IMG/VR virus record: IMGVR_UViG_3300036851_000198
Span: 1,829-65,828 of that record
From: a virus
Taxonomy: Duplodnaviria > Caudoviricetes
Reading direction: 5' to 3' (one strand)
DNA length: 64,000 nucleotides
The position numbers and the translations under genes were made by a program. A model generated the notes under the pieces. That model saw only the letters and a list, made by a program, of their open reading frames with translations. It did not search any database and had not been told where the DNA came from. Below are positions 11,154-61,693 of the stretch, piece by piece (position 1 is the first letter of the stretch; each line of letters begins with the position of its first letter).

Positions 11154-11675
11154 ATGAAGGCTATTCAGACCAGATACTCTGGTCGTCATTTTCGGTCCCG
11201 TCTGGAAGCACGATGGGCAGTTTTCTTTGACGTTCTTGAGGTAGACTGGGAGTATGAGCTAGAGGGGTTTGACCTAGATGAGCTAGGTTGGTACCTGCCC
11301 GATTTTTGGTTGCCATCAATTGATTGCTGGTTTGAGGTAAAGCCAAAGGAGGCTAATGAAAAGGAGTGGGCGTTGTGTAGTGCGGTACGAGAAAACTTTG
11401 GCCCAATCATTCTCTCAAATGGCGGCCCCGACAAGATTCAAACTCTTTTGTGTATGAGTACTTGCGATAGTGGCGGCGGCCATTTTGATTGTGAAGGGGC
11501 CTTCACCAAAGTAATCAATGGCGCTCCCATATTCTCGCATTTGTATGATAATCACGAACTCTGTGACCATAATTGGAAGGATATTGAGTGGGTAGATATC
11601 GGCGATCCCACAAAGGCTTCGCCCCAAATGTGGAGAGCGATTGAGGCGAGTCTTTCCACTCGATTCGGTCGATGA
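11154..11675 (+). CDS. PD-(D/E)xK endonuclease-like protein
   Basis: FRSRLEARWAVFFD...YLPDFWLP...EVKP. Confidence 0.85.
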   Translation: MKAIQTRYSGRHFRSRLEARWAVFFDVLEVDWEYELEGFDLDELGWYLPDFWLPSIDCWFEVKPKEANEKEWALCSAVRENFGPIILSNGGPDKIQTLLCMSTCDSGGGHFDCEGAFTKVINGAPIFSHLYDNHELCDHNWKDIEWVDIGDPTKASPQMWRAIEASLSTRFGR

Positions 11676-13693
11676 ACAATGATTCGGTCTTTAGGGCCGC
11701 GCTCAAATATGCCAAACAAGGGCTTCCAGTCTTTCCTTGCCGTCCCAACAAAAGGCCATTTACCAAGAATGGCTTCTTGGATGCCTCAATAGATCCAGAC
11801 AAGGTTCGCAATTGGTGGATCCATTGGCCAAATGCCATGATCGGGATGCCAACCGGCAAGTTGTCCGGTGTTAGCGTGGTTGATGTTGGAAAAGACCCAT
11901 TGCCAACGGAACTAGATCAGTTTGTGAAGGCGAACGCTCGTGGTTGTGCCAAGCAACGGACTATGAGCGGAGGCTACCATCAACTTTACAAGCACGTTGA
12001 TGGGGTTCCTAGTGTTGGTCATGATAGTAGCAGGGGCGAACCAGATATAGACATCCGTGGCGAAGGTGGTTATGTAATTCTGGCCCCCAGTATAGGCAAG
12101 AACGGCCAATATCGATGGGTGCGTAATATGAGCTCTATCAAAGAGAGCTTTCCGGTTGATCTTGTTGGTATGTTGCGCAGCCGAAGAAACGGGAACAAGC
12201 CTTCCTCTAAGCCACCAGAAGAAGTGGAAATTGGTGAGCGCTATCCGGTGCTCAGATCACTTATAGCCGGTTTGTGGAACAGAAATGTTTCAATAGATGA
12301 AGCCCTAGATCGGGCCAAAGAGTTCAATGAACAGATGGCTGATCCTGTTCCGAATGAGCAGTGGGAGCGTCTTGTTCATTTTGGTTCTTGGCTCGAAGAT
12401 GAGGCTGAAACAAAAGAGGATATGTTCTGGATTGAGACTCCAATCCTCGATCACATTCGTTCCCATGCTCAAGCAAACCGAACGGCGCCATGGCCAGTTC
12501 TTGGTTGCGAACTTGCCAGAGTGGCTGCCGCTACCCATCCCAAGGTACAACTACCAGGTCGAGGCAGCGGTGCGAATAAGGGCAGTCTGAACCTCTTTGT
12601 TGCGCTTGTCGGAGAGCCTGGTAAGGGCAAGGATCAGGCGCTAGCCGAAGCTCGCAGCGCAATCGAGCTTGGTGATGATGATATAGCTTTGATGAGGCTT
12701 GGCTCGGGTGAAGGTCTTGCTCACGCTTACAAGGGTCGCAAGCGGGCTAGCAAGGATGAGCCGTACAAGGAGGTGTGGCTTCGTAGGCAGGTGATGTTTG
12801 AGGAGAGCGAGATTGAGACGGTTTTGAAGTTGGGCGGGCGACAGGGCAGCACCCTCATCTCAGAGCTACGGTCGGCTTGGAATGCAGGAAAGCTCGGGCA
12901 TATGTTCGTTGACCCTCAGAAGCGACTTGATATACCGACTCACTCTTATAGGATGTCGCTAGTTGTAGGAGTGCAGCCAAGCAAGGCAGGCGTGATCCTT
13001 GACGATTCGGCGGGCGGAATGCCGCAGCGGTTTTTGTGGTTGTTGTGCTCGGATCGCTGGGCGCCAGATTTCACAAGTAGTGAGTACGAGTTGAAGCCGA
13101 TTCAACTTGCTTATGCTGAAGTCCTCGACTCTGATCCAGAAGATCACATCATCCCTGTTTGTCAGTCTGCGGTTTCTGATATCGATGACTTTGCGAAGCG
13201 GAGTCTGCGCGGAGAGTATGATGGTGACCCTCTACGTGGGCATTGGCTCCAGAGTAAGCTCAAGGTCGCTGGTCTGTTGGCTATCATGCATGGTTGCACC
13301 GAAGTCGATGATGAGTGGTGGAGGATAGCGGACCTAGTTATGAAACGTTCAGATGAAGGCCGAGCGGTCTGTGCCTACCACTCGTGGCTTGAGCACGGCA
13401 AGGTGATTCGTGGCAAGGCCAAAGACGCTGCCGTGATTGCCGTCACATCGGCTGAGGCTGTTGAGGAAAAGAAGGTTGGACGGTGTCGAAAGGGTATCTT
13501 GAAGGTTGTGAAACCCTATCCGTCGTGGGTTGCTATGACGAGGATCAATAGGTCCTTGCGGTCGGACTTGAAAGACATACTTCATGATACGCTCGATTTG
13601 ATGGTATCCGAGGGTGTGTTGCGCGTTCGAACTCGTGGCTCTGGTGGACAGATATCCCAGCAGTATCAGCTTGCTCCGAAATCGAAGTGGTAG
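11672..13693 (+). CDS. bifunctional DNA primase/polymerase fused to a P-loop (DUF3987-like) domain
   Basis: VFPC..KRP, WPNAMIGMPTG, DIRGEGGYV; NLFVALVGEPGKGK. Confidence 0.9.
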   Translation: MNNDSVFRAALKYAKQGLPVFPCRPNKRPFTKNGFLDASIDPDKVRNWWIHWPNAMIGMPTGKLSGVSVVDVGKDPLPTELDQFVKANARGCAKQRTMSGGYHQLYKHVDGVPSVGHDSSRGEPDIDIRGEGGYVILAPSIGKNGQYRWVRNMSSIKESFPVDLVGMLRSRRNGNKPSSKPPEEVEIGERYPVLRSLIAGLWNRNVSIDEALDRAKEFNEQMADPVPNEQWERLVHFGSWLEDEAETKEDMFWIETPILDHIRSHAQANRTAPWPVLGCELARVAAATHPKVQLPGRGSGANKGSLNLFVALVGEPGKGKDQALAEARSAIELGDDDIALMRLGSGEGLAHAYKGRKRASKDEPYKEVWLRRQVMFEESEIETVLKLGGRQGSTLISELRSAWNAGKLGHMFVDPQKRLDIPTHSYRMSLVVGVQPSKAGVILDDSAGGMPQRFLWLLCSDRWAPDFTSSEYELKPIQLAYAEVLDSDPEDHIIPVCQSAVSDIDDFAKRSLRGEYDGDPLRGHWLQSKLKVAGLLAIMHGCTEVDDEWWRIADLVMKRSDEGRAVCAYHSWLEHGKVIRGKAKDAAVIAVTSAEAVEEKKVGRCRKGILKVVKPYPSWVAMTRINRSLRSDLKDILHDTLDLMVSEGVLRVRTRGSGGQISQQYQLAPKSKW

Positions 13694-34014: not shown

Positions 34015-34636
34015 CGAGATTTTCGGACCTGTTCACTCATTCCGCGACTCGGAGGTTGCGCTAGAGAACCACGTCAAGCTCTGGCTCGATACCTTCCTGG
34101 CCCGCCGCGAGCGCGATCGAGATATCGAGCCGGGCACTCTGGCAAGGCCGCGAAGCTACATACCTAAGCAAACCTTCACTGCGCTCCCCGGCGAGGACGT
34201 AACGCCCGCGATCATTATTGTGTCGGATGGCTTCGCTGAAAGTCCCAATCGACACGGCGACGGAAAGTGGGACGTCAAGCTGAGAATGGCAATTGTCGCT
34301 CTGTGTCACGGACCCGAGGCAAGGCTCGCTCGCGACTTGGCTGGCCACTACCAGTACGCATTGACGAACCTCGTGTTGAAGAAGCGAGCGTTCGGTCCTT
34401 GCTCTCTTGACGAATGGCTAGACTTACGATTGGAGGATGTAGACGAAGATCAACAACGTACTCTCTGTGCAGTCAGGATCGAATTGGTGTACGTAGTCAG
34501 AGACTTTGTGGATGATGCGATCAGTCCTCCCGCAGCGCCGGATGATCCGAGTGTGCCGCCGGATGACCCGTATCCGCCACAACCAGATCCGCCGATAGTT
34601 GAAACGCATTCAGAGACAACGGAGGTCATGCAGTGA
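34007..34636 (+). CDS. tail terminator/completion protein
   Basis: position before sheath; PAIIIVSDG. Confidence 0.6.
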   Translation: MPDEIFGPVHSFRDSEVALENHVKLWLDTFLARRERDRDIEPGTLARPRSYIPKQTFTALPGEDVTPAIIIVSDGFAESPNRHGDGKWDVKLRMAIVALCHGPEARLARDLAGHYQYALTNLVLKKRAFGPCSLDEWLDLRLEDVDEDQQRTLCAVRIELVYVVRDFVDDAISPPAAPDDPSVPPDDPYPPQPDPPIVETHSETTEVMQ

Positions 34637-36314: not shown

Positions 36315-36327
36315 GGAGGGATGAACG

Positions 36328-54535: not shown

Positions 54536-55438
54536 TTACTGCCACGCTGCGGTTGGGTCGCTGAGCCATTCTGATGAATGGATCTCATCGAAGCGCCCTG
54601 CCTCGACTCGTTCGCGTATGGTGCAACCACGATCTGCTCCTGATTTGAACATACACTTGCCGGTGTTGAAGCAGATCGGCTGAAAGATCTGGGAGTCTGC
54701 AATGTACTCGAACTGCCAGCGCGCTCCACGCAATTCATATGTCGGTCCGCCCATATCTTCAATTTGGTATGCTTTTGGAGGATTGTATTCTCGGATTGCT
54801 TGGCGCAACGATGCCACCCATTCCTTCCAGGGCATCTGGGCTTGTGTGCACAAGCGCTTGCCTATTTCATCTATAAGGTTGCGAAGTGACACTTTATGAT
54901 GAAGTCTAGTAAGAATATCGTGTGGGAGCAAGCCCCGAGCTTCCTCAGCTGGTACGCCGTTAGCGATCAGCCAAGCGTACACCTCTCCGACCTTGTCTAT
55001 GGCTTCGTAGTAGCGCTTGAGCTTCTTGGTATCTGCCTGGATGATTGGACCCGGTCGAACTGACTCTCTCAAGTTTTCCTTGACTGCGAATCGCATTGAT
55101 TCCTGTGCAAACACCGCTGTCCGCTGCCGTACTTCCTGATGCGTATGCGCGCGAGTTACCCCCTCAACCATAATATGTAGGTCGCAAAACTCAAGCGGAG
55201 CCTTTAGTGTGGTCTTGAAACACTCATCGAAGTAGTGCCTGCGCTCGTCGTCGGTAATCTCGCTGAGGTCGTGTATAACGCGACCTTCGTACATTAGTGA
55301 CGCAGCCGCTATTGCTCCTAGCGGATCTGGTGTGGCTGACAAAAGATGCACTACTGGGTGGCTGAGTGCAGTCTCCGGAATCGGCTCGGCCTCATACATC
55401 GAGGAATCTACCCAATTTGAAACTTCCTGTCCCATCAA
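54536..55438 (-). CDS. thyX: flavin-dependent thymidylate synthase
   Basis: PLEF, VTRAHTHQEVRQRTAVFAQESMRF, AEEARGLLP, RLCTQAQ. Confidence 0.85.
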   Translation of the reverse strand: MMGQEVSNWVDSSMYEAEPIPETALSHPVVHLLSATPDPLGAIAAASLMYEGRVIHDLSEITDDERRHYFDECFKTTLKAPLEFCDLHIMVEGVTRAHTHQEVRQRTAVFAQESMRFAVKENLRESVRPGPIIQADTKKLKRYYEAIDKVGEVYAWLIANGVPAEEARGLLPHDILTRLHHKVSLRNLIDEIGKRLCTQAQMPWKEWVASLRQAIREYNPPKAYQIEDMGGPTYELRGARWQFEYIADSQIFQPICFNTGKCMFKSGADRGCTIRERVEAGRFDEIHSSEWLSDPTAAWQ

Positions 55439-56519: not shown

Positions 56520-56545
56520 CCCGGTATGTAATGATCAAGCATCAT
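56486..56545 (-). pseudogene. displaced original 3' end of the glycosyltransferase gene
   Basis: MMLDHYIPGWEVRINWKKS* aligns with the present end KMLDEFCPDWKKRINWTKR*. Confidence 0.75.
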
Positions 56546-57066
56546 CTGATATCCTTCAAACACCTTATGATTGGAGTTTGTGATACACCATATTCTACTG
56601 CTAACCTTCTTATCAATCCGTGTTTATATTTCGCATTGATGTATTTGTTTCTGATCTCTTCCGCTTGCGCTCTGTCTATTTTTGAATGAGCAACCCCCAT
56701 CTTCTGTTTTGTTTCGTTTGTGAGTCGCTTTCCGGTATTTGCCATTGAAATTTTCAATGCCGTTTCTTTTGTTATGACTCTTCCCTTCGCTGCGATACTC
56801 AATTTTGATCGGTATTCATCGCCAATCAACTTGCCCTTATGGTGGAGGCTGGTGTGACACCGAAGGTGCATGAATCGAAGATTTGACGGATTGTTATTTG
56901 CACTATCAAAATCAAAATGGTGGATAGCGATTCTTTCCTGTACGCCTACAAACTTTACACCATCCCAGTATGATTCGGTTTCCTTTCCACAACCCCAACA
57001 ATTATGAGGTCCTTCCCCAAATTTTCCATGAAAGCTCTTGTGGTGCTTCCATTTGCTTGCGCTCAT
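56542..57066 (-). CDS. HNH homing endonuclease with NUMOD3 repeats
   Basis: IHHFDFDSANNNPSNL...CHTSLH; ETALKISMANTGK; AT-rich. Confidence 0.9.
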   Translation of the reverse strand: MSASKWKHHKSFHGKFGEGPHNCWGCGKETESYWDGVKFVGVQERIAIHHFDFDSANNNPSNLRFMHLRCHTSLHHKGKLIGDEYRSKLSIAAKGRVITKETALKISMANTGKRLTNETKQKMGVAHSKIDRAQAEEIRNKYINAKYKHGLIRRLAVEYGVSQTPIIRCLKDIR

Positions 57067-57875
57067 CTTTTAGTCCAGTTTATCCTTTTCTTCCAGTCGG
57101 GACAGAATTCATCTAACATCTTCTTCCAGCGACAGACTAGGTTTCCTCCCATCCTCGGTTTGTTTATATACTCCGGCCACCTTTCGTGCATCATTCTATG
57201 GCAGGAGAACTCGGCTTGGGCTCTCCGGTCCTCGTCCTCATCGTGCAGCGCATTCAATCCTCCCTGTTCATGTCGTCCGCCGATACTCACGCCCTGCACG
57301 CCCGCGTGAACGTACCATGTGTAGCCATAGCGTGCGATTCCTTCGCGGACGATTTCATTGTCGCTCCCAAAGGTATGCAATCGGCTGTCGAAGTTGCCAC
57401 ACTTCAGTGCCCGTGCTATGTCGAGCGAGAACAGGCGCTTGCCCATCGCGTTCGTCATCAAGAGCGGGTCGTCGCGCTCGCGTATTGTGTTGTTTCCGAA
57501 CGTTAGTCCGTAGAATGGCAGCATGGCGCCGATGCCTAGCGTGCGGAGTCTGTCGAATTCCATCAGACGATTGACGTCACTATCCGGATGCGGGTACAGA
57601 TCGTCGTCCGCCATGATGATGCGCGCTATTCCCCAGGAGTCTGCCAAATCAACTATCCATGATCGTGCGTAGGCGATACCTCGATTCGACTTTGGTAGTG
57701 TTAGGACGCTGTGCACATTCTTGAACGGACTTCCTGAGATTAGCTCTAGGTGGCTCGGTGTATCTTCGCGCTCGCCTACGATGTGGATCTCAACGTCCTG
57801 CTCCTGCCACTTCGGAAGCACCTTCTCAAGACAATGCAGGCGGCGTTTCGTTGGTATGAATACGACGGACTTCAT
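57063..57875 (-). CDS. GT-A fold glycosyltransferase (TAGT/GREB1-like), putative DNA modification
   Basis: FIPTKRR, GIAYARSWI, IMADDDL, late GG motif. Confidence 0.7.
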   Translation of the reverse strand: MKSVVFIPTKRRLHCLEKVLPKWQEQDVEIHIVGEREDTPSHLELISGSPFKNVHSVLTLPKSNRGIAYARSWIVDLADSWGIARIIMADDDLYPHPDSDVNRLMEFDRLRTLGIGAMLPFYGLTFGNNTIRERDDPLLMTNAMGKRLFSLDIARALKCGNFDSRLHTFGSDNEIVREGIARYGYTWYVHAGVQGVSIGGRHEQGGLNALHDEDEDRRAQAEFSCHRMMHERWPEYINKPRMGGNLVCRWKKMLDEFCPDWKKRINWTKR

Positions 57876-58144
57876 GGCCCTGTGTCGTAAATAGCCCGTC
57901 TAATATCAGCCATGGCGCCTTTGTACTCTTCCTCCACAAAAAGTCCTTCTTCAATACGACCCAGTACTGATTGGATTGACAGAAGAGCGCCGGTTATCGC
58001 TTTGGCATCGAGACTAACACCTTCGTGAAATAAGAGTTGTCTAGCAAATTCAGCATACTCTCCTGTTGACGATGAATCGCTAGGGATTTCAACTCTGCTA
58101 CCGTCGGCAAAGTTGATGAACCAATCTGGATTCTCTACGTCCAT
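57872..58144 (-). CDS. hypothetical protein
   Basis: AAGGAG SD, ATGA overlap. Confidence 0.65.
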   Translation of the reverse strand: MDVENPDWFINFADGSRVEIPSDSSSTGEYAEFARQLLFHEGVSLDAKAITGALLSIQSVLGRIEEGLFVEEEYKGAMADIRRAIYDTGP

Positions 58145-58155
58145 ATCTGCTCCTT

Positions 58156-58989
58156 TTACGGTCTGATTACCCAGAGCTTGTTTACTTGTACGCCGTAACG
58201 TGGCTTACGGCCCGTGACCAACAATAGATCGCCTTCCTCTAGGTTGAATAGGTAATCTTTGTACTTCGGGAACCTCCATCTGTTGAGTTTTAGCATTGTC
58301 TGGTCGTTCTCGTCGCGGGCATACAGGATGGCGAACTCGCGCAGATGCGGGTCCTTCATCGTGCTCAGATCTACCACCGTGCCGCGTGCCTGGTTCACTT
58401 CTCCTATGTCTCTAATGTTGTACTTTACGAGTTCACCCAGCCAAACTACTCGCCTGCCCTGCTCTTCCTCATCTAGCTCGCGAGCGTTGTGTGTTGGGTA
58501 TGGCAAGCTATCGGCTCCGTCCCGCAGCGCCTCCGACTTCAATTCGCGCTTGACCGCCTTGATCGACTTCTCAAGCCGGTAGATGTCGAATGGGTCGTCC
58601 TGCTCTAGCCACTCTTTGATCTTCTCGATTGACTTCGGACCAATGCCGCTGACTGCGATTAGTTCGTCCCATTGCCTGGGGTCGAACTCGATGATCTTCT
58701 CGGCGGTCTTGGGTCCGATCTTGTCTATCTGGGTATACCCTGCGACGATGCGCTTGCGCTTTAGTTTGCCATTCCAATCAGGCTTCCAGCTTACATCCGA
58801 CTTGCCTGGCACCGGCTTGAGCACCTTGATGTTGTGCTTCTCCGCGTCCCGAAGGATGTCTCGTTGCTTGTGCTCTCCGTAGTGGCGCGCACTGGCTGCA
58901 TAAAAGGCAGTTGGATAGTGAACCTTGAACCACATCGTCCAATATGCTAGCAACCCGTAGGCAACGCAATGGGCTGCGTTGAATGCGTA
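58156..58989 (-). CDS. dnaE: DNA polymerase III alpha, segment 3 (fingers end, HhH, OB fold)
   Basis: YAFNAAHCVAYGLLAYWTMWFKVHYP, IDKIGPKTA; joined to segment 2 across a 5-nt gap. Confidence 0.85.
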   Translation of the reverse strand, partial: YAFNAAHCVAYGLLAYWTMWFKVHYPTAFYAASARHYGEHKQRDILRDAEKHNIKVLKPVPGKSDVSWKPDWNGKLKRKRIVAGYTQIDKIGPKTAEKIIEFDPRQWDELIAVSGIGPKSIEKIKEWLEQDDPFDIYRLEKSIKAVKRELKSEALRDGADSLPYPTHNARELDEEEQGRRVVWLGELVKYNIRDIGEVNQARGTVVDLSTMKDPHLREFAILYARDENDQTMLKLNRWRFPKYKDYLFNLEEGDLLLVTGRKPRYGVQVNKLWVIRP

Positions 58990-58994
58990 CAGTA

Positions 58995-61298
58995 CGAGCC
59001 GGAAGTAATCATACTCATCCAGGCTCGTTTGGCAATCACCTCCTCAATCTTCGGGTAGTCGGTTCGTTTGTGTAACGTTTGACACCCTTCCCAAAATCTA
59101 CCCCAACTTCGGTTGAACTCCTGCTCGCCTATCTTCCGGCTGATGATCTTGCGAATGTACGCGGCGTGCGTCCACGGGAAGTCTCCCACTTCTCGTACAA
59201 TGCGTAGGATCTGTTCCTGATAGACGATCTGAAACTGCGTGTCTGCGGTGATCGCATCAATCGCAGGGTGAAGTCTCTCCGGTTCTGCCCGTCCAAACTT
59301 GATAGCAGCATACGCACTTGCTGCCCCATTGTGAAGAGGGCCGGGTCGAGATAGAGCGTTGCAGTCCATGATCTCGATAAACTTCTCTGGCTTGAGGATT
59401 TGACACACAGATCGCATCGCACGCCCATCAAATTGAAAGACCGCTGTGACATCGTTCTCCTTGAACCCTTTGTATACCCTTTGGTCATCGAGCGGGATCG
59501 AGTACAGATCGTCAAGGTCCATATTGCACCACTTGAGCATTGTCCAGAGCGCACTCATGGTACTCAGGCCCAGGAAGTCGATCTTGAGTAGTCCCTGCCG
59601 CTCCGCGTCGTACTTGTCGAATGCAACAACGTCGGCATAGGTGTCCTTGATCTTCTTGCGATAGATCGCCGCCACGTCGCTAATCGGACCGCTGGATACA
59701 ACGTATGCCGCTGCGTGTACCCCTGACCCTCTGACGTTGCCCTCCAATAGCTGCGCTTCGCGGAGCTTTGGGAACCGTTCTATCACGTCTTGTGCCTGCG
59801 GGAACTGCTCGATGGTGTCCTCGACGGTAGCGCTGGCACGTAGGTCGCCTGAGCTTCGCTCTATGAGGAACGACTTGATCGTCTCAACCTCAAACTTCGG
59901 GATCTTGTAGACGCGAGCGATATCGTCCAGAGAGTTCTTGCCCTTGAAGTACACAAACGTGCCGATGTTAGCTACGTGCCCGTCATACTTCTTCTCCAGA
60001 TACTCGCGCAGGATGCCGGTGTCGCGAACTTCGGATGGGAAGTCGATGTCGATGTCGGGCAAGTCCTCGCGGGTTACGTCGATGAATCGCTCAAAGATCA
60101 GAAGCGGGAAGCGCATCGGATCGACTTCCGTGATGCGCATGACGAACGCTACCAAGCTACCTGCCGCCGAGCCTCGCGCCGGTCCTACTGGTATGCCTTT
60201 GTTCTTGATGAAGACGATGGCGTCCGCGACGATGAGGAAGTAGTTTTCATACCCCTTCTGTTCGATCATCTCGACTTCGTACTTGAGCCTCTTCCTGTAC
60301 TTCGCTCTCTCTGCGCCGGTGAGCTTGTCGAAGCCCCGGTACTTCCAGCCCTCGCGGATCTGGTGACGCCAGAAATCCTTGGCGGTTTTGTAACCCGGCG
60401 GCAGTGGGAACGTTGGCATATCCAGGCGCGGCAGGGTGACGGTGCATTCCTCGGCTATGTCTGCCGTCGTCTGGATCGCCTCTATTGCCTGACTCTGTGT
60501 AAGTCCGGTCCCTTTGAGCTTCCGTAGGATGGTCGAATCGTTGATGGGAGGGGCCAATCCGATGTCGTATCCCCAATCTCTCTCCAATTCCTCCGTAGTG
60601 CGCTTCTCGCCAGGACGTAGGCCGTGCAGTATTTTCTGAACCTCGGCCTCTTCCAGAGCTGTGTAGTGGCAGTCCATCGAGGCCACCAGTCGGCTTCCAA
60701 TACGATGCGCAATCCGAGCGAGTAGCTTGTTTGCTTGTCGAGTTCTCTCAAGCTCAGGAAATCCTTGTACCTCGACGAAATAATCACCGCCGAAATGACG
60801 TTTGAATTCCCTGGCAACTTTGAGTCCGCGACCAAATGACGCATGTTTCTCGTCTAGCCCCTTTCCGCCGACCGTTGAGCAGAACAACAGGCTGCCTGCG
60901 CAGCCCGACATTATGACTAGCCCCTTCTTGTGTTTGCAGAGTGTATCAAACCTTATTGTCGGTTCGTACCTGAACCCCGTCTGTCCTGCATCTGCCGGTT
61001 CACCATTAGGCCCTCTCTCCCAAGAGAGGTTCATCAGTTTGAGCAGGTTCCTGTAGCCGACCGCGTTCTTGGCGAGCACTGTGAGGTGCATCTTGCGCTG
61101 TCCGCGATTGTCCCACGGGCACGGCATGTAAATCTCGCATCCAAAGATCGGCTTGACGCCCTTGATCTTCTCGCACGCTTCCTCAAACTTGACGTGGCTG
61201 TCGATATTGCCGTGCTCGGTCATGACCATCGCAGACATGTTCAACTCGGTAGCCCGACGCACATGAGCCTCGGGCATCTGGTACCCATCGAGATATGA
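58995..61298 (-). CDS. dnaE: DNA polymerase III alpha, segment 2 (PHP, palm, thumb, fingers)
   Basis: SYLDG, GPARGSAAGS, REDLPDIDIDF, GVHAAA, KIDFLGL, VFQF, YQEQ. Confidence 0.95.
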
Positions 61299-61305
61299 CT
61301 AAAGA

Positions 61306-61533
61306 GAAGGTCGAATGATGGTGCAAACTTGCAAACCTCATCGACCTTCTATTCCCCCTCACCACCTTCCGTACAAAGATCGGAGGATCTTTGTGTACTG
61401 CTATCTTGTCGGCTGCCAGACTGTGAGCAAGCGGACCGCGCACCCTCTTTGTTTTGGTTTTGTCCACTTCCTTATCTCGCCAAGATCCGCTGGAGCCTTT
61501 GCCCCAGTTATCGCCACCTGATGTCTTAGGCAC
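61306..61533 (-). CDS. dnaE: DNA polymerase III alpha, segment 1 (N-terminus; alternative start 61341)
   Basis: MRFASLHHHSTF, first half of PHP motif I; joined to segment 2 across a 7-nt gap. Confidence 0.8.
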
Positions 61534-61693
61534 TAGTTTCTCCTAGTTGGATCAGTGCCTCGCCCAGAATCTCTCTATTTTGGTCACGAGGAAATGAGAA
61601 ACCATCATCGTAAGCCATTGCCAATCTAATTGCCCACAGCACTCCTTCGCGCTGATCATCAGTCAGGAAGTAAATGTTACCTTTTGCAGTCAA
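61526..61693 (-). CDS. hypothetical protein
   Basis: TTG start after GGGGAGG, TTGA overlap. Confidence 0.55.
   Translation of the reverse strand: MTAKGNIYFLTDDQREGVLWAIRLAMAYDDGFSFPRDQNREILGEALIQLGETSA

What the first reader, a model, noticed from the sequence alone, without database searches (positions are those of the whole stretch)
61296..61308. dnaE coding gap 1: a 7-nt insert with matched Ser codons and a UUA codon, suggesting programmed translational bypassing
Seen: the mRNA reads CAC CAU CAU UCG ACC UUC UCU UUA G UCA UAU CUC GAU GGG. The conserved PHP motif HxHS/TxF/YSxLDG is split between frames, and skipping exactly 7 nt gives HHHSTFSYLDG. The last in-frame codon (UCU, Ser) is matched by UCA (Ser) 7 nt downstream, and the codon after UCU is UUA. 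A UAG in the new frame blocks any earlier +1 slip. Known: matched take-off and landing codons define bypassing in T4 gene 60; UUA is the rarest codon in high-GC actinobacteria; UUA-adjacent hops have been proposed in Streptomyces phage genes. Inference: full-length replicase is made only when ribosomes stall at UUA and hop, tying phage replication to host tRNA status. Caveat: UUA also occurs in ordinary genes here, such as terL.
Basis: partly seen in the sequence, partly recalled or inferred. Interest (0 to 1): 0.92.

Follow-up and report, generated by a model that had tools for sequence, protein, structure and literature searches.

The report
TTA-led ribosome-hop insert in phage dnaE
The DNA polymerase gene of this uncultured soil phage is broken by seven extra bases that begin with its rarest codon, and matching breaks in related phages suggest that ribosomes hop over them, a way of decoding genes published so far only for a few Streptomyces phage terminase genes.

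Summary
On the minus strand dnaE reads ...ACC UUC UCU | UUA G UCA | UAU CUC GAU GGG. That is 7 extra nt (61302-61296) inside the PHP motif. They are absent from 14 of 14 related loci and from 118 full-length homologues. An independent assembly of the likely source run also carries them. A second 5-nt insert (UAC|UG UAC|, 58991-57) breaks the same gene. No other shared gene is broken, and the gene read with both skips keeps 190 of 191 conserved columns.

Searches that did not ask for TTA found the same design in other uncultured actinophage PHP/dnaE genes: a codon, then in-frame UUA (once UAG), 0-5 further nt, then a synonymous codon. Inserts of 6, 7 and 9 nt occur at one site. One insert is kept in phages only 75-83% identical, and another in two contigs that are 99.2% identical. 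Both window sites have a stable hairpin ending at the take-off codon. Relatives, and 20 ordinary TTA codons of the window, have no comparable hairpin.

Best reading (about 0.68): short translational bypassing of the phiHau3 type. Nothing was shown at protein level. UUA is decoded normally elsewhere in this phage, so strict gating by tRNA status is doubtful. This scan has noted the same design in other genes on other DNA.

The parts
61303..61533 (-). dnaE segment 1: 77 codons from GTG 61533 (start inferred) to the take-off codon UCU (61305-61303). It encodes an N-terminal extension and the first PHP motif, ...MRFASLHHHSTFS.
   Evidence: ORF 61183..61533. The extension is conserved at 63-66% aa in relatives G001-G003. 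The piece aligns to columns up to 194.
61305..61350 (-). 5' hairpin 1: a 46-nt stem-loop whose 3' arm ends on the first nt of the take-off codon.
   Evidence: The 63 nt ending at the take-off codon fold at -22.9 kcal/mol, z -2.55, and 4 of 200 shuffles fold as well. In the 120-nt context z is -2.94. Twelve relatives at the same site give -6.4 to -19.0 kcal/mol and z -2.25 to +0.96.
61296..61302 (-). Insert 1 (7 nt, TTAGTCA): zero-frame UUA 61302-61300, spacer G 61299, landing codon UCA 61298-61296. UAG of the resumed frame lies at 61301-61299.
   Evidence: The insert is present in the Logan contig.
58992..61295 (-). dnaE segment 2: 768 codons from UAU 61295 to the second take-off codon UAC 58994-58992. 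It covers the rest of PHP, the Pol III alpha core and the fingers.
   Evidence: Pfam PF02811, PF07733 and PF17657. 78% aa identity to L002-L004. No stop inside.
58994..59028 (-). 5' hairpin 2: a 35-nt stem-loop whose 3' arm ends on the first nt of take-off codon UAC.
   Evidence: -20.3 kcal/mol, z -3.09, and 1 of 200 shuffles folds as well. Eleven relatives at the same site give z -1.42 to +1.14.
58987..58991 (-). Insert 2 (5 nt, TGTAC): UG plus landing codon UAC 58989-58987, between SGSY and AFNAAH.
   Evidence: Absent from 15 of 15 related loci. The pieces abut at columns 1034/1035. A pattern scan for 1-11 extra nt at this site in viral contigs found 0 hits.
58156..58986 (-). dnaE segment 3: 276 codons plus the stop, carrying the helix-hairpin-helix C-terminal region.
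   Evidence: HhH family hits. 61-67% aa identity to the C-termini of relatives.

Best explanation
Insert 1 is a short untranslated coding gap that ribosomes cross by translational bypassing (hopping).

Proposed steps:
1. Peptidyl-tRNA(Ser) sits on UCU in the P site.
2. The A site holds UUA, the phage's rarest codon and presumably slow to decode.
3. In a fraction of ribosomes the codon-anticodon pairing opens and the mRNA slides 7 nt. Refolding of the hairpin whose 3' arm ends at the take-off codon probably helps.
4. The tRNA re-pairs on the synonymous UCA.
5. Decoding resumes at UAU and gives the canonical ...HSTFSYLDG... PHP motif.

A second hop of 5 nt (UAC to UAC) is needed 2.3 kb downstream to finish DnaE. 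Polymerase yield is therefore the product of two hop efficiencies.

Shown: the inserts are real, lineage-specific and confined to dnaE. The same design recurs and persists in other phages. The hairpins are present.

Inferred: the hop itself, its efficiency, the role of the hairpin, and any regulatory use.
For: (1) The insert is real and specific. It is in an independent assembly at depth 11.5 and absent from all relatives. dnaE is the only gene that changes frame among about 30 genes shared with three relatives.

(2) There is no sign of decay. Read with both skips, DnaE keeps 190 of 191 columns that are at least 97% conserved in 118 relatives. Leave-one-out relatives miss 0-7 columns, median 1.

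(3) The design recurs, and the searches that found it did not ask for TTA.
- A scan for 1-11 extra nt between the HHHSxxS and DG codons gave 12 hits. Two were PHP genes. L036 has CAA|UAG G CAG| (7 nt, frame-breaking, one codon from the window's site). L039 has an in-frame extra TTA.
- Among 24 PHP loci fetched by protein, L066 has GGC|UUA C GGU| (7 nt), L055 has GGU|UUA CUC GGC| (9 nt, in frame), L052/L058/L059 have CAY|UUA CAY| (6 nt, in frame), and L056 has a 2-nt insert that makes UCU UUA.
- In 35 PHP regions (11,152 codons) there are 10 TTA codons. Five of them open a lineage-specific insert.

(4) TTA-targeted scans added L079, GGA|UUA U GGC| (7 nt), and L208, GGA|UUA GGC| (6 nt), at the same site. 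Insert lengths of 6, 7 and 9 nt at one site therefore ignore the reading frame.

(5) The inserts persist. L052, L058 and L059 are 75-83% nt identical, with 49-62% identity at third positions, yet all three keep TTA. L209 and L210 are 99.19% identical over 4,924 nt and share the frame-breaking insert. On a tree, insert-bearers are scattered among insert-free relatives.

(6) Hairpins abut the take-off codon.
- Window sites: z -2.55 and -3.09, each the lowest z among the loci folded at its site, against 12 and 11 relatives.
- Twenty ordinary TTA codons of the window have no comparable abutting stem. These include 3 sites that also have a synonymous codon 7 nt on.
- At the TEHG site, z is -4.07, -5.16, -4.70 and -1.43 in 4 insert-bearers. 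In 21 insert-free loci z is -2.24 to +1.38. One pair shows a compensatory change.

(7) There is a published precedent. The phiHau3 terminase has two 10-nt UUA-led inserts and an S. catenulae prophage has a 7-nt one. A junction peptide was found by mass spectrometry in E. coli (PMC10732093, sections 3.4-3.6 and passages read).
Against: - There is no protein, RNA or ribosome data. No RNA run was listed.
- No relative carries this particular insert, so its own conservation cannot be judged. The closest homologue (P0002, 85% aa) is full length.
- The phage is known from one sample only.
- UUA is decoded normally elsewhere. About 21 other in-frame TTA codons exist. None of the 8 alignable ones lies at an insertion, and 5 align to Leu in most relatives, including dnaE codon 735. 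The hop must therefore compete with ordinary decoding and may be inefficient.
- Three ordinary TTA sites also have a synonymous codon 7 nt on.
- UCU and UCA are usually read by different tRNA(Ser) species, so re-pairing may rest on 2 of 3 bases (my knowledge, not tested).
- Gap 2 has UGU, neither rare among the Cys codons nor a stop, in the A site. No other phage has an insert there.
- L056 has no landing codon.
- I saw no Shine-Dalgarno-like stretch within about 20 nt 5' of the take-off codon (by eye).
- The hairpin controls are related sequences. Weaker versions of the TEHG stem exist in insert-free L048 and L053.
Confidence: 0.68

Rival explanations
1. The window carries a dead or dispensable allele. 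Two real insertion mutations inactivated dnaE in a defective or helper-dependent genome, or in a phage that can use another polymerase. The resemblance to hop sites is coincidental for this genome.
For: The inserts are unique to this contig, and only one sample holds it. CheckV rates the record 78% complete, with no terminal repeats. A Prim-Pol gene is present at 11672-13693. A matched codon 7 nt on also occurs at 3 of 21 ordinary TTA sites. Gap 2 lacks a slow codon.
Against: Both hits fall in one gene that makes up about 5% of the window, and none falls in about 30 other shared genes. The gene shows no loss of conserved residues. In-frame TTA at the break, a synonymous landing codon and an abutting hairpin occur together at both sites, and recur in independent phages. 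Depth 11.5 in a soil metagenome is hard to reach for a non-replicating phage, although a prophage could reach it. All 118 full-length relatives keep DnaE intact.
Confidence: 0.15
2. The gene is recoded by a mechanism other than hopping: a +1 or -2 frameshift at or next to UUA that gives a DnaE with extra residues in the PHP motif, or a tRNA that reads more than three bases.
For: A slow A-site codon is the classic trigger of +1 frameshifting (PMC5009743, passages read). In L066 and L079 the +1 frame after the take-off codon is open (UAC/UAU GGN).
Against: In the window the +1 frame has UAG directly after the take-off codon. The only +1 route is therefore after UUA has been decoded as Leu, with poor re-pairing, and it would add two residues where 118 relatives never vary in length. 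In-frame 6- and 9-nt inserts of the same design cannot be explained by frameshifting. No tRNA gene was found in the window.
Confidence: 0.06
3. The extra bases are removed before translation, at the DNA or RNA level. Possibilities are population heterogeneity or excision, transcript editing, or a very small spliced element.
For: Contigs drop rare variants, so a minority insert-free allele cannot be excluded. T4 gene 60's gap is thought to derive from a degenerate intron (PMC5009743, passage read).
Against: No variant contig, indel or joint was reported at either site. No Rfam family is matched in the window. The defining features are codon-level ones, namely TTA in the upstream frame and a synonymous landing codon, and they point to the ribosome. 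No 5-9 nt intron type is known (my knowledge).
Confidence: 0.05
4. The inserts are sequencing or assembly artefacts.
For: The sequence is a metagenome-assembled contig. The only holder found is probably the source run.
Against: A second assembler reproduces 3,501 nt with 0 differences at depth 11.5. 5- and 7-nt insertions are not a usual short-read error (my knowledge). The same design appears in contigs of several other metagenomes.
Confidence: 0.03

Closest known systems
UUA-led coding gaps in the large terminase of Streptomyces phage phiHau3 (two 10-nt gaps) and of the StrepC.1 and S. catenulae prophages (the latter 7 nt). Proposed by Smith et al. 2013, which is not held here, and tested by Antonov et al. 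2023, PMC10732093 (outline, section 3.4 and passages read).
   Same: Both have a short frame-disrupting insert with UUA at its 5' end inside a highly conserved motif of an essential phage gene. The flanks are contiguous in homologues. Two gaps lie in one gene. A 7-nt length occurs in both. A landing codon and nearby mRNA structure are invoked. The phage is an actinophage-like virus that avoids UUA.
   Different: The gene here is the DnaE replicase, not terminase. The phage has about 21 other in-frame UUA codons, whereas the paper says phiHau3 mRNA has only two. The zero frame runs 39 codons past UUA before a stop. The second gap has no UUA. The host is unknown and the phage is about 55% G+C. 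The sequences of the published gaps are in supplementary files that I could not open, so landing codons and hairpin positions could not be compared.
Phage T4 gene 60 bypassing (50-nt gap)
   Same: Both have a take-off and landing codon for one peptidyl-tRNA, and an insert in a conserved part of a DNA-metabolism gene. [quoted passage not shown] L036 even has UAG right after its take-off codon, as gene 60 does.
   Different: The gap here is 7 nt rather than 50. The codon pair is synonymous, not identical. There is a sense codon, not a stop, in the A site. No nascent-peptide signal or take-off stem-loop was identified. Homology to the gene 60 element was not tested and none is expected.
Low-level hops at slow or 'hungry' codons in E. 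coli (+5 and +6 hops of Weiss et al. 1987; Gallant et al.). These are cited in PMC10732093 (passage and reference list read). Details are recalled.
   Same: The hop distance is 5-7 nt, re-pairing is at a cognate or near-cognate codon, and there is a slow A-site codon.
   Different: Those events were seen in synthetic constructs or under starvation, at low efficiency. Here the sites lie in a natural essential gene and come with a dedicated-looking hairpin.
Mitochondrial 'byp' elements of Magnusiomyces capitatus (mentioned in PMC10732093 and PMC5009743, passages read)
   Same: Many inserts occur within and across genes, with patchy distribution among relatives and landing codons that pair on 2 of 3 bases.
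   Different: The byps are 27-55 nt G+C-rich mobile elements (recalled) in a mitochondrial system, and they are not led by UUA.

Membership tests
phiHau3-type UUA-led translational bypass gap | A short frame-disrupting insert whose flanks are contiguous in homologues | tested here: met
   The 7 nt are absent from 14 of 14 loci that cover the site. The pieces abut at adjacent alignment columns.
phiHau3-type UUA-led translational bypass gap | UUA is the first zero-frame codon of the insert | tested here: met
   TCT TTA G TCA at 61305-61296.
phiHau3-type UUA-led translational bypass gap | UUA is otherwise (almost) unused by the phage | tested here: inconclusive
   TTA is the rarest sense codon at 1.2 per 1,000. 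In long ORFs 27 were observed against 99 expected. It is nevertheless present in 16 of 55 ORFs, often at conserved Leu.
phiHau3-type UUA-led translational bypass gap | A landing codon that can pair with the peptidyl-tRNA lies at the 3' end of the gap | tested here: met
   UCU to UCA is a synonymous pair. Whether one tRNA reads both codons was not testable. Three of 21 ordinary TTA sites show the same pairing by chance.
phiHau3-type UUA-led translational bypass gap | mRNA structure next to the take-off site | tested here: met
   The hairpin at 61350-61305 folds at -22.9 kcal/mol with z -2.55. Relatives and 20 ordinary TTA sites lack a comparable one.
phiHau3-type UUA-led translational bypass gap | An internal Shine-Dalgarno-like signal near the site | tested here: not met
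   None was seen by eye within about 20 nt 5' of the take-off codon. No formal scan was run.
phiHau3-type UUA-led translational bypass gap | Full-length protein with a junction peptide lacking the gap-encoded residues | not testable with these tools
   This needs mass spectrometry or a reporter.
phiHau3-type UUA-led translational bypass gap | A host with limiting or regulated tRNA-Leu(UAA), such as bldA-type | not testable with these tools
   The host is unknown. Cultured relatives are below 50% aa identity and infect Gordonia, Mycobacterium, Microbacterium, Arthrobacter, Nocardia and Streptomyces.
T4 gene 60-type bypass element | Identical take-off and landing codons, a stop after take-off, a gap of about 50 nt, and a nascent-peptide signal | tested here: not met
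   Gap 1 has a synonymous pair, a sense codon in the A site and a 7-nt gap. It resembles gene 60 in the proposed mechanism only.
+1 programmed frameshift site (prfB/RF2 type) | A P-site codon that re-pairs in the +1 frame, with an open +1 frame | tested here: not met
   The +1 frame has UAG at 61301-61299, and UCU to CUU gives no re-pairing.
DnaE-type Pol III alpha (phage, with N-terminal PHP) | PHP, Pol III alpha core, fingers and HhH domains in order | tested here: met
   PF02811, PF07733 and PF17657 in segment 2, and HhH families in segment 3. 190 of 191 conserved columns are kept.

The most novel reading that the evidence does not exclude
Small cassettes of the form [codon][UUA or stop][0-5 nt][synonymous codon], each sitting just 3' of a hairpin, are a recurrent and repeatedly gained or lost device in the replication genes of uncultured soil actinophages. 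Ribosomes hop over them whatever their length or frame, driven by refolding of the 5' hairpin. This phage needs two such hops to make its replicase. One of them (UAC-UG-UAC) has no slow codon, which would mean that the hairpin plus a perfect landing codon can suffice. Polymerase supply would then be set translationally, perhaps by the host's UUA-decoding capacity.
Probability: 0.45. Interest if true: 0.85.

Novelty: new member of a known kind. Interest (0 to 1): 0.72.

Why it matters
Natural translational bypassing is documented for very few genes: T4 gene 60 and its homologues, yeast mitochondrial byps, and candidate cases in three Streptomyces phage or prophage terminases. If the reading is right, this case puts the phiHau3-type hop into a different essential gene, the replicase.

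It also comes with about ten natural variants in related phages: 2-9 nt long, in frame and out of frame, led by UUA or UAG. Each has a positioned 5' hairpin, which is a directly testable stimulator. Together these form a ready-made mutational series for working out what makes a ribosome hop.

There is a practical side for annotation. Such genes are called as fragments or as N-terminally truncated proteins. The window's DnaE is called as 763 aa and L036's PHP protein as 274 aa.

In the paper library, a search for 'bypassing' + 'UUA' + 'DnaE' found 0 papers. A search for 'TTA codon'/'actinophage'/'frameshift' listed nothing on polymerase genes.

Tried and rejected
- Assembly artefact: rejected as the main reading.

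- General decay of the genome: rejected. The only other apparent frame switch, near 36320, is an intergenic boundary between two + strand genes.

- L036's 'second break': not a frameshift. Its clade has dnaE naturally split into a PHP gene of about 310 aa and a pol gene of about 750 aa.

- PHP proteins of 273-275 aa that start at MALTEHG (P0271, P0276, P0316, P0325, P0348): I suspected more broken genes. Their own contigs were not among the loci fetched, so this stays open.

- Cultured phages: Wollypog, Damien and P3.1 read through the motif without a break. Damien's late annotated start is only a start-codon call. No cultured phage with an insert was found, but the collection cannot be scanned by pattern.

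- Gap-2 site scan: 0 hits.

My loose filter flagged 2 hits and neither is a PHP gene. This says nothing about prophages.

- Endonuclease link, a lead from earlier scan notes: a phrog_4160-like ORF lies next to the PHP gene in 5 of 9 insert-bearing lineages and in 4 of 18 insert-free loci. One copy hits an HNH phrog at E 7e-5 and one hits Pfam HNH_2 below cut-off. The result is inconclusive. In the window, a NUMOD3 ORF (56542-57066) that has no counterpart at that position in G001-G003 lies 1.1 kb 3' of dnaE. No link was shown.

- RNA evidence: no RNA holder was listed.

- tRNA and Rfam: none found in the window.

- megablast against cultured phages: no match.

They bear on the comparison of landing codons and structures.
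Full report
WHAT IS THERE

The window is nearly all of a 65,828-bp IMG/VR virus record. The record is linear and CheckV rates it 78% complete. It is about 55% G+C. It encodes a tail sheath, baseplate J, a Mu-type portal, a capsid protein, a Prim-Pol and a DnaE-type polymerase. Cultured relatives of the polymerase are all below 50% aa identity. They infect Mycobacterium, Streptomyces, Gordonia, Microbacterium, Arthrobacter and Nocardia, so the host is some actinobacterium of unknown genus.

dnaE lies on the minus strand in three pieces:
- 61533-61303
- 61295-58992
- 58986-58156

The zero frame continues to a stop at 61183. The frame that carries the rest of DnaE has UAG immediately before UCA.

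THE INSERT IS REAL AND LINEAGE-SPECIFIC

- Fifteen related loci were fetched from IMG/VR (48-81% aa identity). All 14 that cover the site read HHHST(F/Y/L)S..DG without a break.
- All 15 read SGSYAFN(A/F)AH straight through at a second site, where the window has UCG UAC UG UAC GCA, five extra bases.
- Among the 119 other proteins listed in a search of 5.8 billion sequences, 118 are 1,024-1,192 aa. The closest (P0002, 85%) has 1,123 aa, and one (P0027) has 833 aa at 74% coverage. The window's own product is on record as a 763-aa fragment.
- Logan's separate assembly of run X1 gives a 10.5-kb contig identical over 58100-61600 at word depth 11.5, with no indel or variant reported. X1 is probably the source sample.

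THE GENE IS NOT DECAYING

ORFs of three relatives' genomes were compared with the window by tblastn. dnaE was the only gene whose pieces change frame. The one other apparent switch, near 36320, is an intergenic boundary. The three dnaE pieces were aligned separately to 118 full-length relatives. They abut on adjacent columns at both junctions and keep 190 of 191 columns that are at least 97% conserved. Ordinary relatives miss 0-7 columns, median 1.

CODON USAGE

TTA is the rarest sense codon, at 18 of 15,356 codons in 55 hand-picked ORFs. TGT is next at 68. In long ORFs, 27 TTA were observed against 99 expected from position-specific base composition. The three relatives show a similar deficit.

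TTA is nevertheless used. One search lists 22 in-frame TTA codons, including the one at the gap. I looked at 19 of them, and 8 can be aligned to relatives. None of the 8 lies at an insertion, and 5 align to Leu in most relatives. One of those is codon 735 of dnaE segment 2. Three ordinary TTA codons also have a synonymous codon 7 nt after the preceding codon (take-off positions 34421, 57119 and 59078). The matched pair at the gap is therefore not significant on its own.

THE COMPARATIVE TEST

They do.

(a) A pattern scan of IMG/VR asked for 1-11 extra nt between the HHHSxxS and DG codons. It did not ask for TTA. It gave 12 hits, 10 of them chance matches. The other two are PHP genes:
- L036 has UUC CAA | UAG G CAG | GAC GGU. 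This is a 7-nt frame-breaking insert one codon from the window's site, with CAA/CAG matched and a stop codon in the A site.
- L039 has an extra in-frame TTA.

L036's clade has dnaE naturally split into a PHP gene and a pol gene, so this is its only break. Its 84%-identical relative P0242 is intact.

(b) Twenty-four PHP loci were fetched by protein similarity. They include:
- L066, GAA CAU GGC | UUA C GGU | AGC (7 nt, frame-breaking)
- L055, GGU | UUA CUC GGC | GGA (9 nt, in frame)
- L052, L058 and L059, CAY | UUA CAY | (6 nt, in frame, inside the HHH motif)
- L056, a 2-nt insert that creates UCU UUA but has no landing codon

In 35 PHP regions (11,152 codons) there are only 10 TTA codons. Five of them open such an insert.

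(c) Scans for TEHG followed by TTA added two more:
- L079, GGA | UUA U GGC | AAC (7 nt)
- L208, GGA | UUA GGC | AAC (6 nt)

They also found L210, which is 99.19% identical to L066's contig over 4,924 nt and carries the same break.

So at one site, related phages have 6-, 7- and 9-nt versions. That makes sense only if the insert is not read in the ordinary way.

L052, L058 and L059 are 75-83% nt identical, with third positions 49-62% identical, yet all three keep TTA. On a rough tree, insert-bearers are scattered among insert-free relatives (11 of the 42 loci given were left out because my anchor search missed them).

A HAIRPIN AT THE TAKE-OFF CODON

I folded the 63 nt that end with the take-off codon.

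| Site | MFE (kcal/mol) | z-score | Stem, or shuffles folding as well |
|---|---|---|---|
| Window gap 1 | -22.9 | -2.55 | stem 61350-61305 |
| Window gap 2 | -20.3 | -3.09 | stem 59028-58994 |
| L066 | -26.6 | -4.07 | 0 of 200 shuffles |
| L208 | -25.8 | -5.16 | 0 of 200 shuffles |
| L055 | -29.2 | -4.70 | 0 of 200 shuffles |
| L079 | -23.1 | -1.43 | 21 of 200 shuffles |

In both window sites the 3' arm stops on the first base of the take-off codon. In L066, L208, L055 and L079 the stem closes 1-2 nt before the end of the take-off codon.

Other insert-bearers are weaker. L052, L058 and L059 have z -1.43 to -2.42, and L036 has z -0.99.

Controls:
- 12 relatives at gap-1's site: z -2.25 to +0.96
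- 11 relatives at gap-2's site: z -1.42 to +1.14
- 21 insert-free loci at the TEHG site: z -2.24 to +1.38
- 20 ordinary TTA codons of the window: z -2.82 to +0.98, none with a long stem abutting the preceding codon

The TEHG stem has one compensatory pair (L066). It is interrupted in the two insert-free loci that have a weaker version of it.

These controls are related sequences, so this counts as support, not proof. A 5' stem whose refolding pulls mRNA forward is the driver proposed for T4 gene 60 (bioRxiv 10.1101/2024.12.09.627546, abstract read). A 5' stem-loop is also proposed for phiHau3 (PMC10732093, passages read).

MECHANISM AND CONFIDENCE

The best reading is a hop of peptidyl-tRNA(Ser) from UCU to UCA over UUA-G, followed 2.3 kb later by a hop from UAC to UAC over UG. 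I put it at about 0.68.

Shown:
- The inserts are real and specific.
- The gene is intact.
- The design recurs, persists and ignores the reading frame in other phages.
- The hairpins are present.

Inferred:
- The hop itself and its efficiency
- The role of the hairpin
- Which tRNA(Ser) is involved
- Any regulation

The idea that replication is tied to host tRNA status is weakened by the many ordinary UUA codons, one of them in dnaE itself, and by the lack of UUA at gap 2.

Rivals: a dead or dispensable allele (0.15), another kind of recoding (0.06), removal before translation (0.05), and artefact (0.03).

COMPARISON WITH WHAT IS KNOWN

The closest published case is the phiHau3 terminase, with two prophage terminases. 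It has UUA-led 10- and 7-nt gaps in conserved motifs and a junction peptide shown in E. coli (PMC10732093).

The window meets most testable defining features:
- the insert
- the leading UUA
- the landing codon
- nearby mRNA structure

It does not meet two features:
- near-absence of UUA elsewhere in the phage
- a visible Shine-Dalgarno-like signal

It is not a gene 60-type element. I found no paper on such gaps in a polymerase gene.

Earlier notes of this scan report the same design in portal, terminase, tail tube, adaptor and other genes on other DNA. I used those notes only as a lead for the endonuclease question, which stayed inconclusive.

Noticed in passing
L044 (G006) and homologues; L045 (G007): In a large clade of uncultured actinophages, dnaE is naturally split into a PHP gene of about 310 aa and a pol gene of about 750 aa. 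The two genes are separated by 0-1,300 nt that often hold small ORFs.
   Followed up: partly
window 56542-57066 (-): A 174-aa ORF with a NUMOD3 motif, probably a homing endonuclease, lies 1.1 kb 3' of dnaE. It has no counterpart at this position in relatives G001-G003.
   Followed up: partly
window 57063-57875 (-) and 54536-55438 (-): A TET-associated glycosyltransferase-like gene (PF20691) and a ThyX gene lie next to dnaE. This hints at modified DNA bases.
   Followed up: no
window 59078-59070, 57119-57111 and 34421-34429: Three ordinary in-frame TTA codons have a synonymous codon 7 nt after the preceding codon (ACG..ACA, ATG..ATG, GAC..GAT). None has an abutting hairpin. A hop at any of them would break the gene.
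   Followed up: yes
L056 about 1915-1930: A PHP gene is broken by 2 extra nt that create UCU UUA inside HHHS|TFS. It has no synonymous landing codon. It may be a plain defect or a +2 shift.
   Followed up: no
L209 11696-12259, L085 1720-2091, L052 1465-1890: A small ORF of phrog_4160 (function unknown, faint HNH similarity) lies directly beside the PHP gene in several loci. It sits sometimes upstream and sometimes between the PHP and pol genes.
   Followed up: partly
proteins P0271, P0276, P0316, P0325, P0348: Five distinct PHP proteins from other assemblies are called as starting at the internal MALTEHG. These could hide further N-terminal breaks.
   Followed up: no
window 11672-13693 (+): There is a Prim-Pol primase-polymerase gene with a DUF3987 region, so the phage has a second polymerase-type domain.
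   Followed up: no
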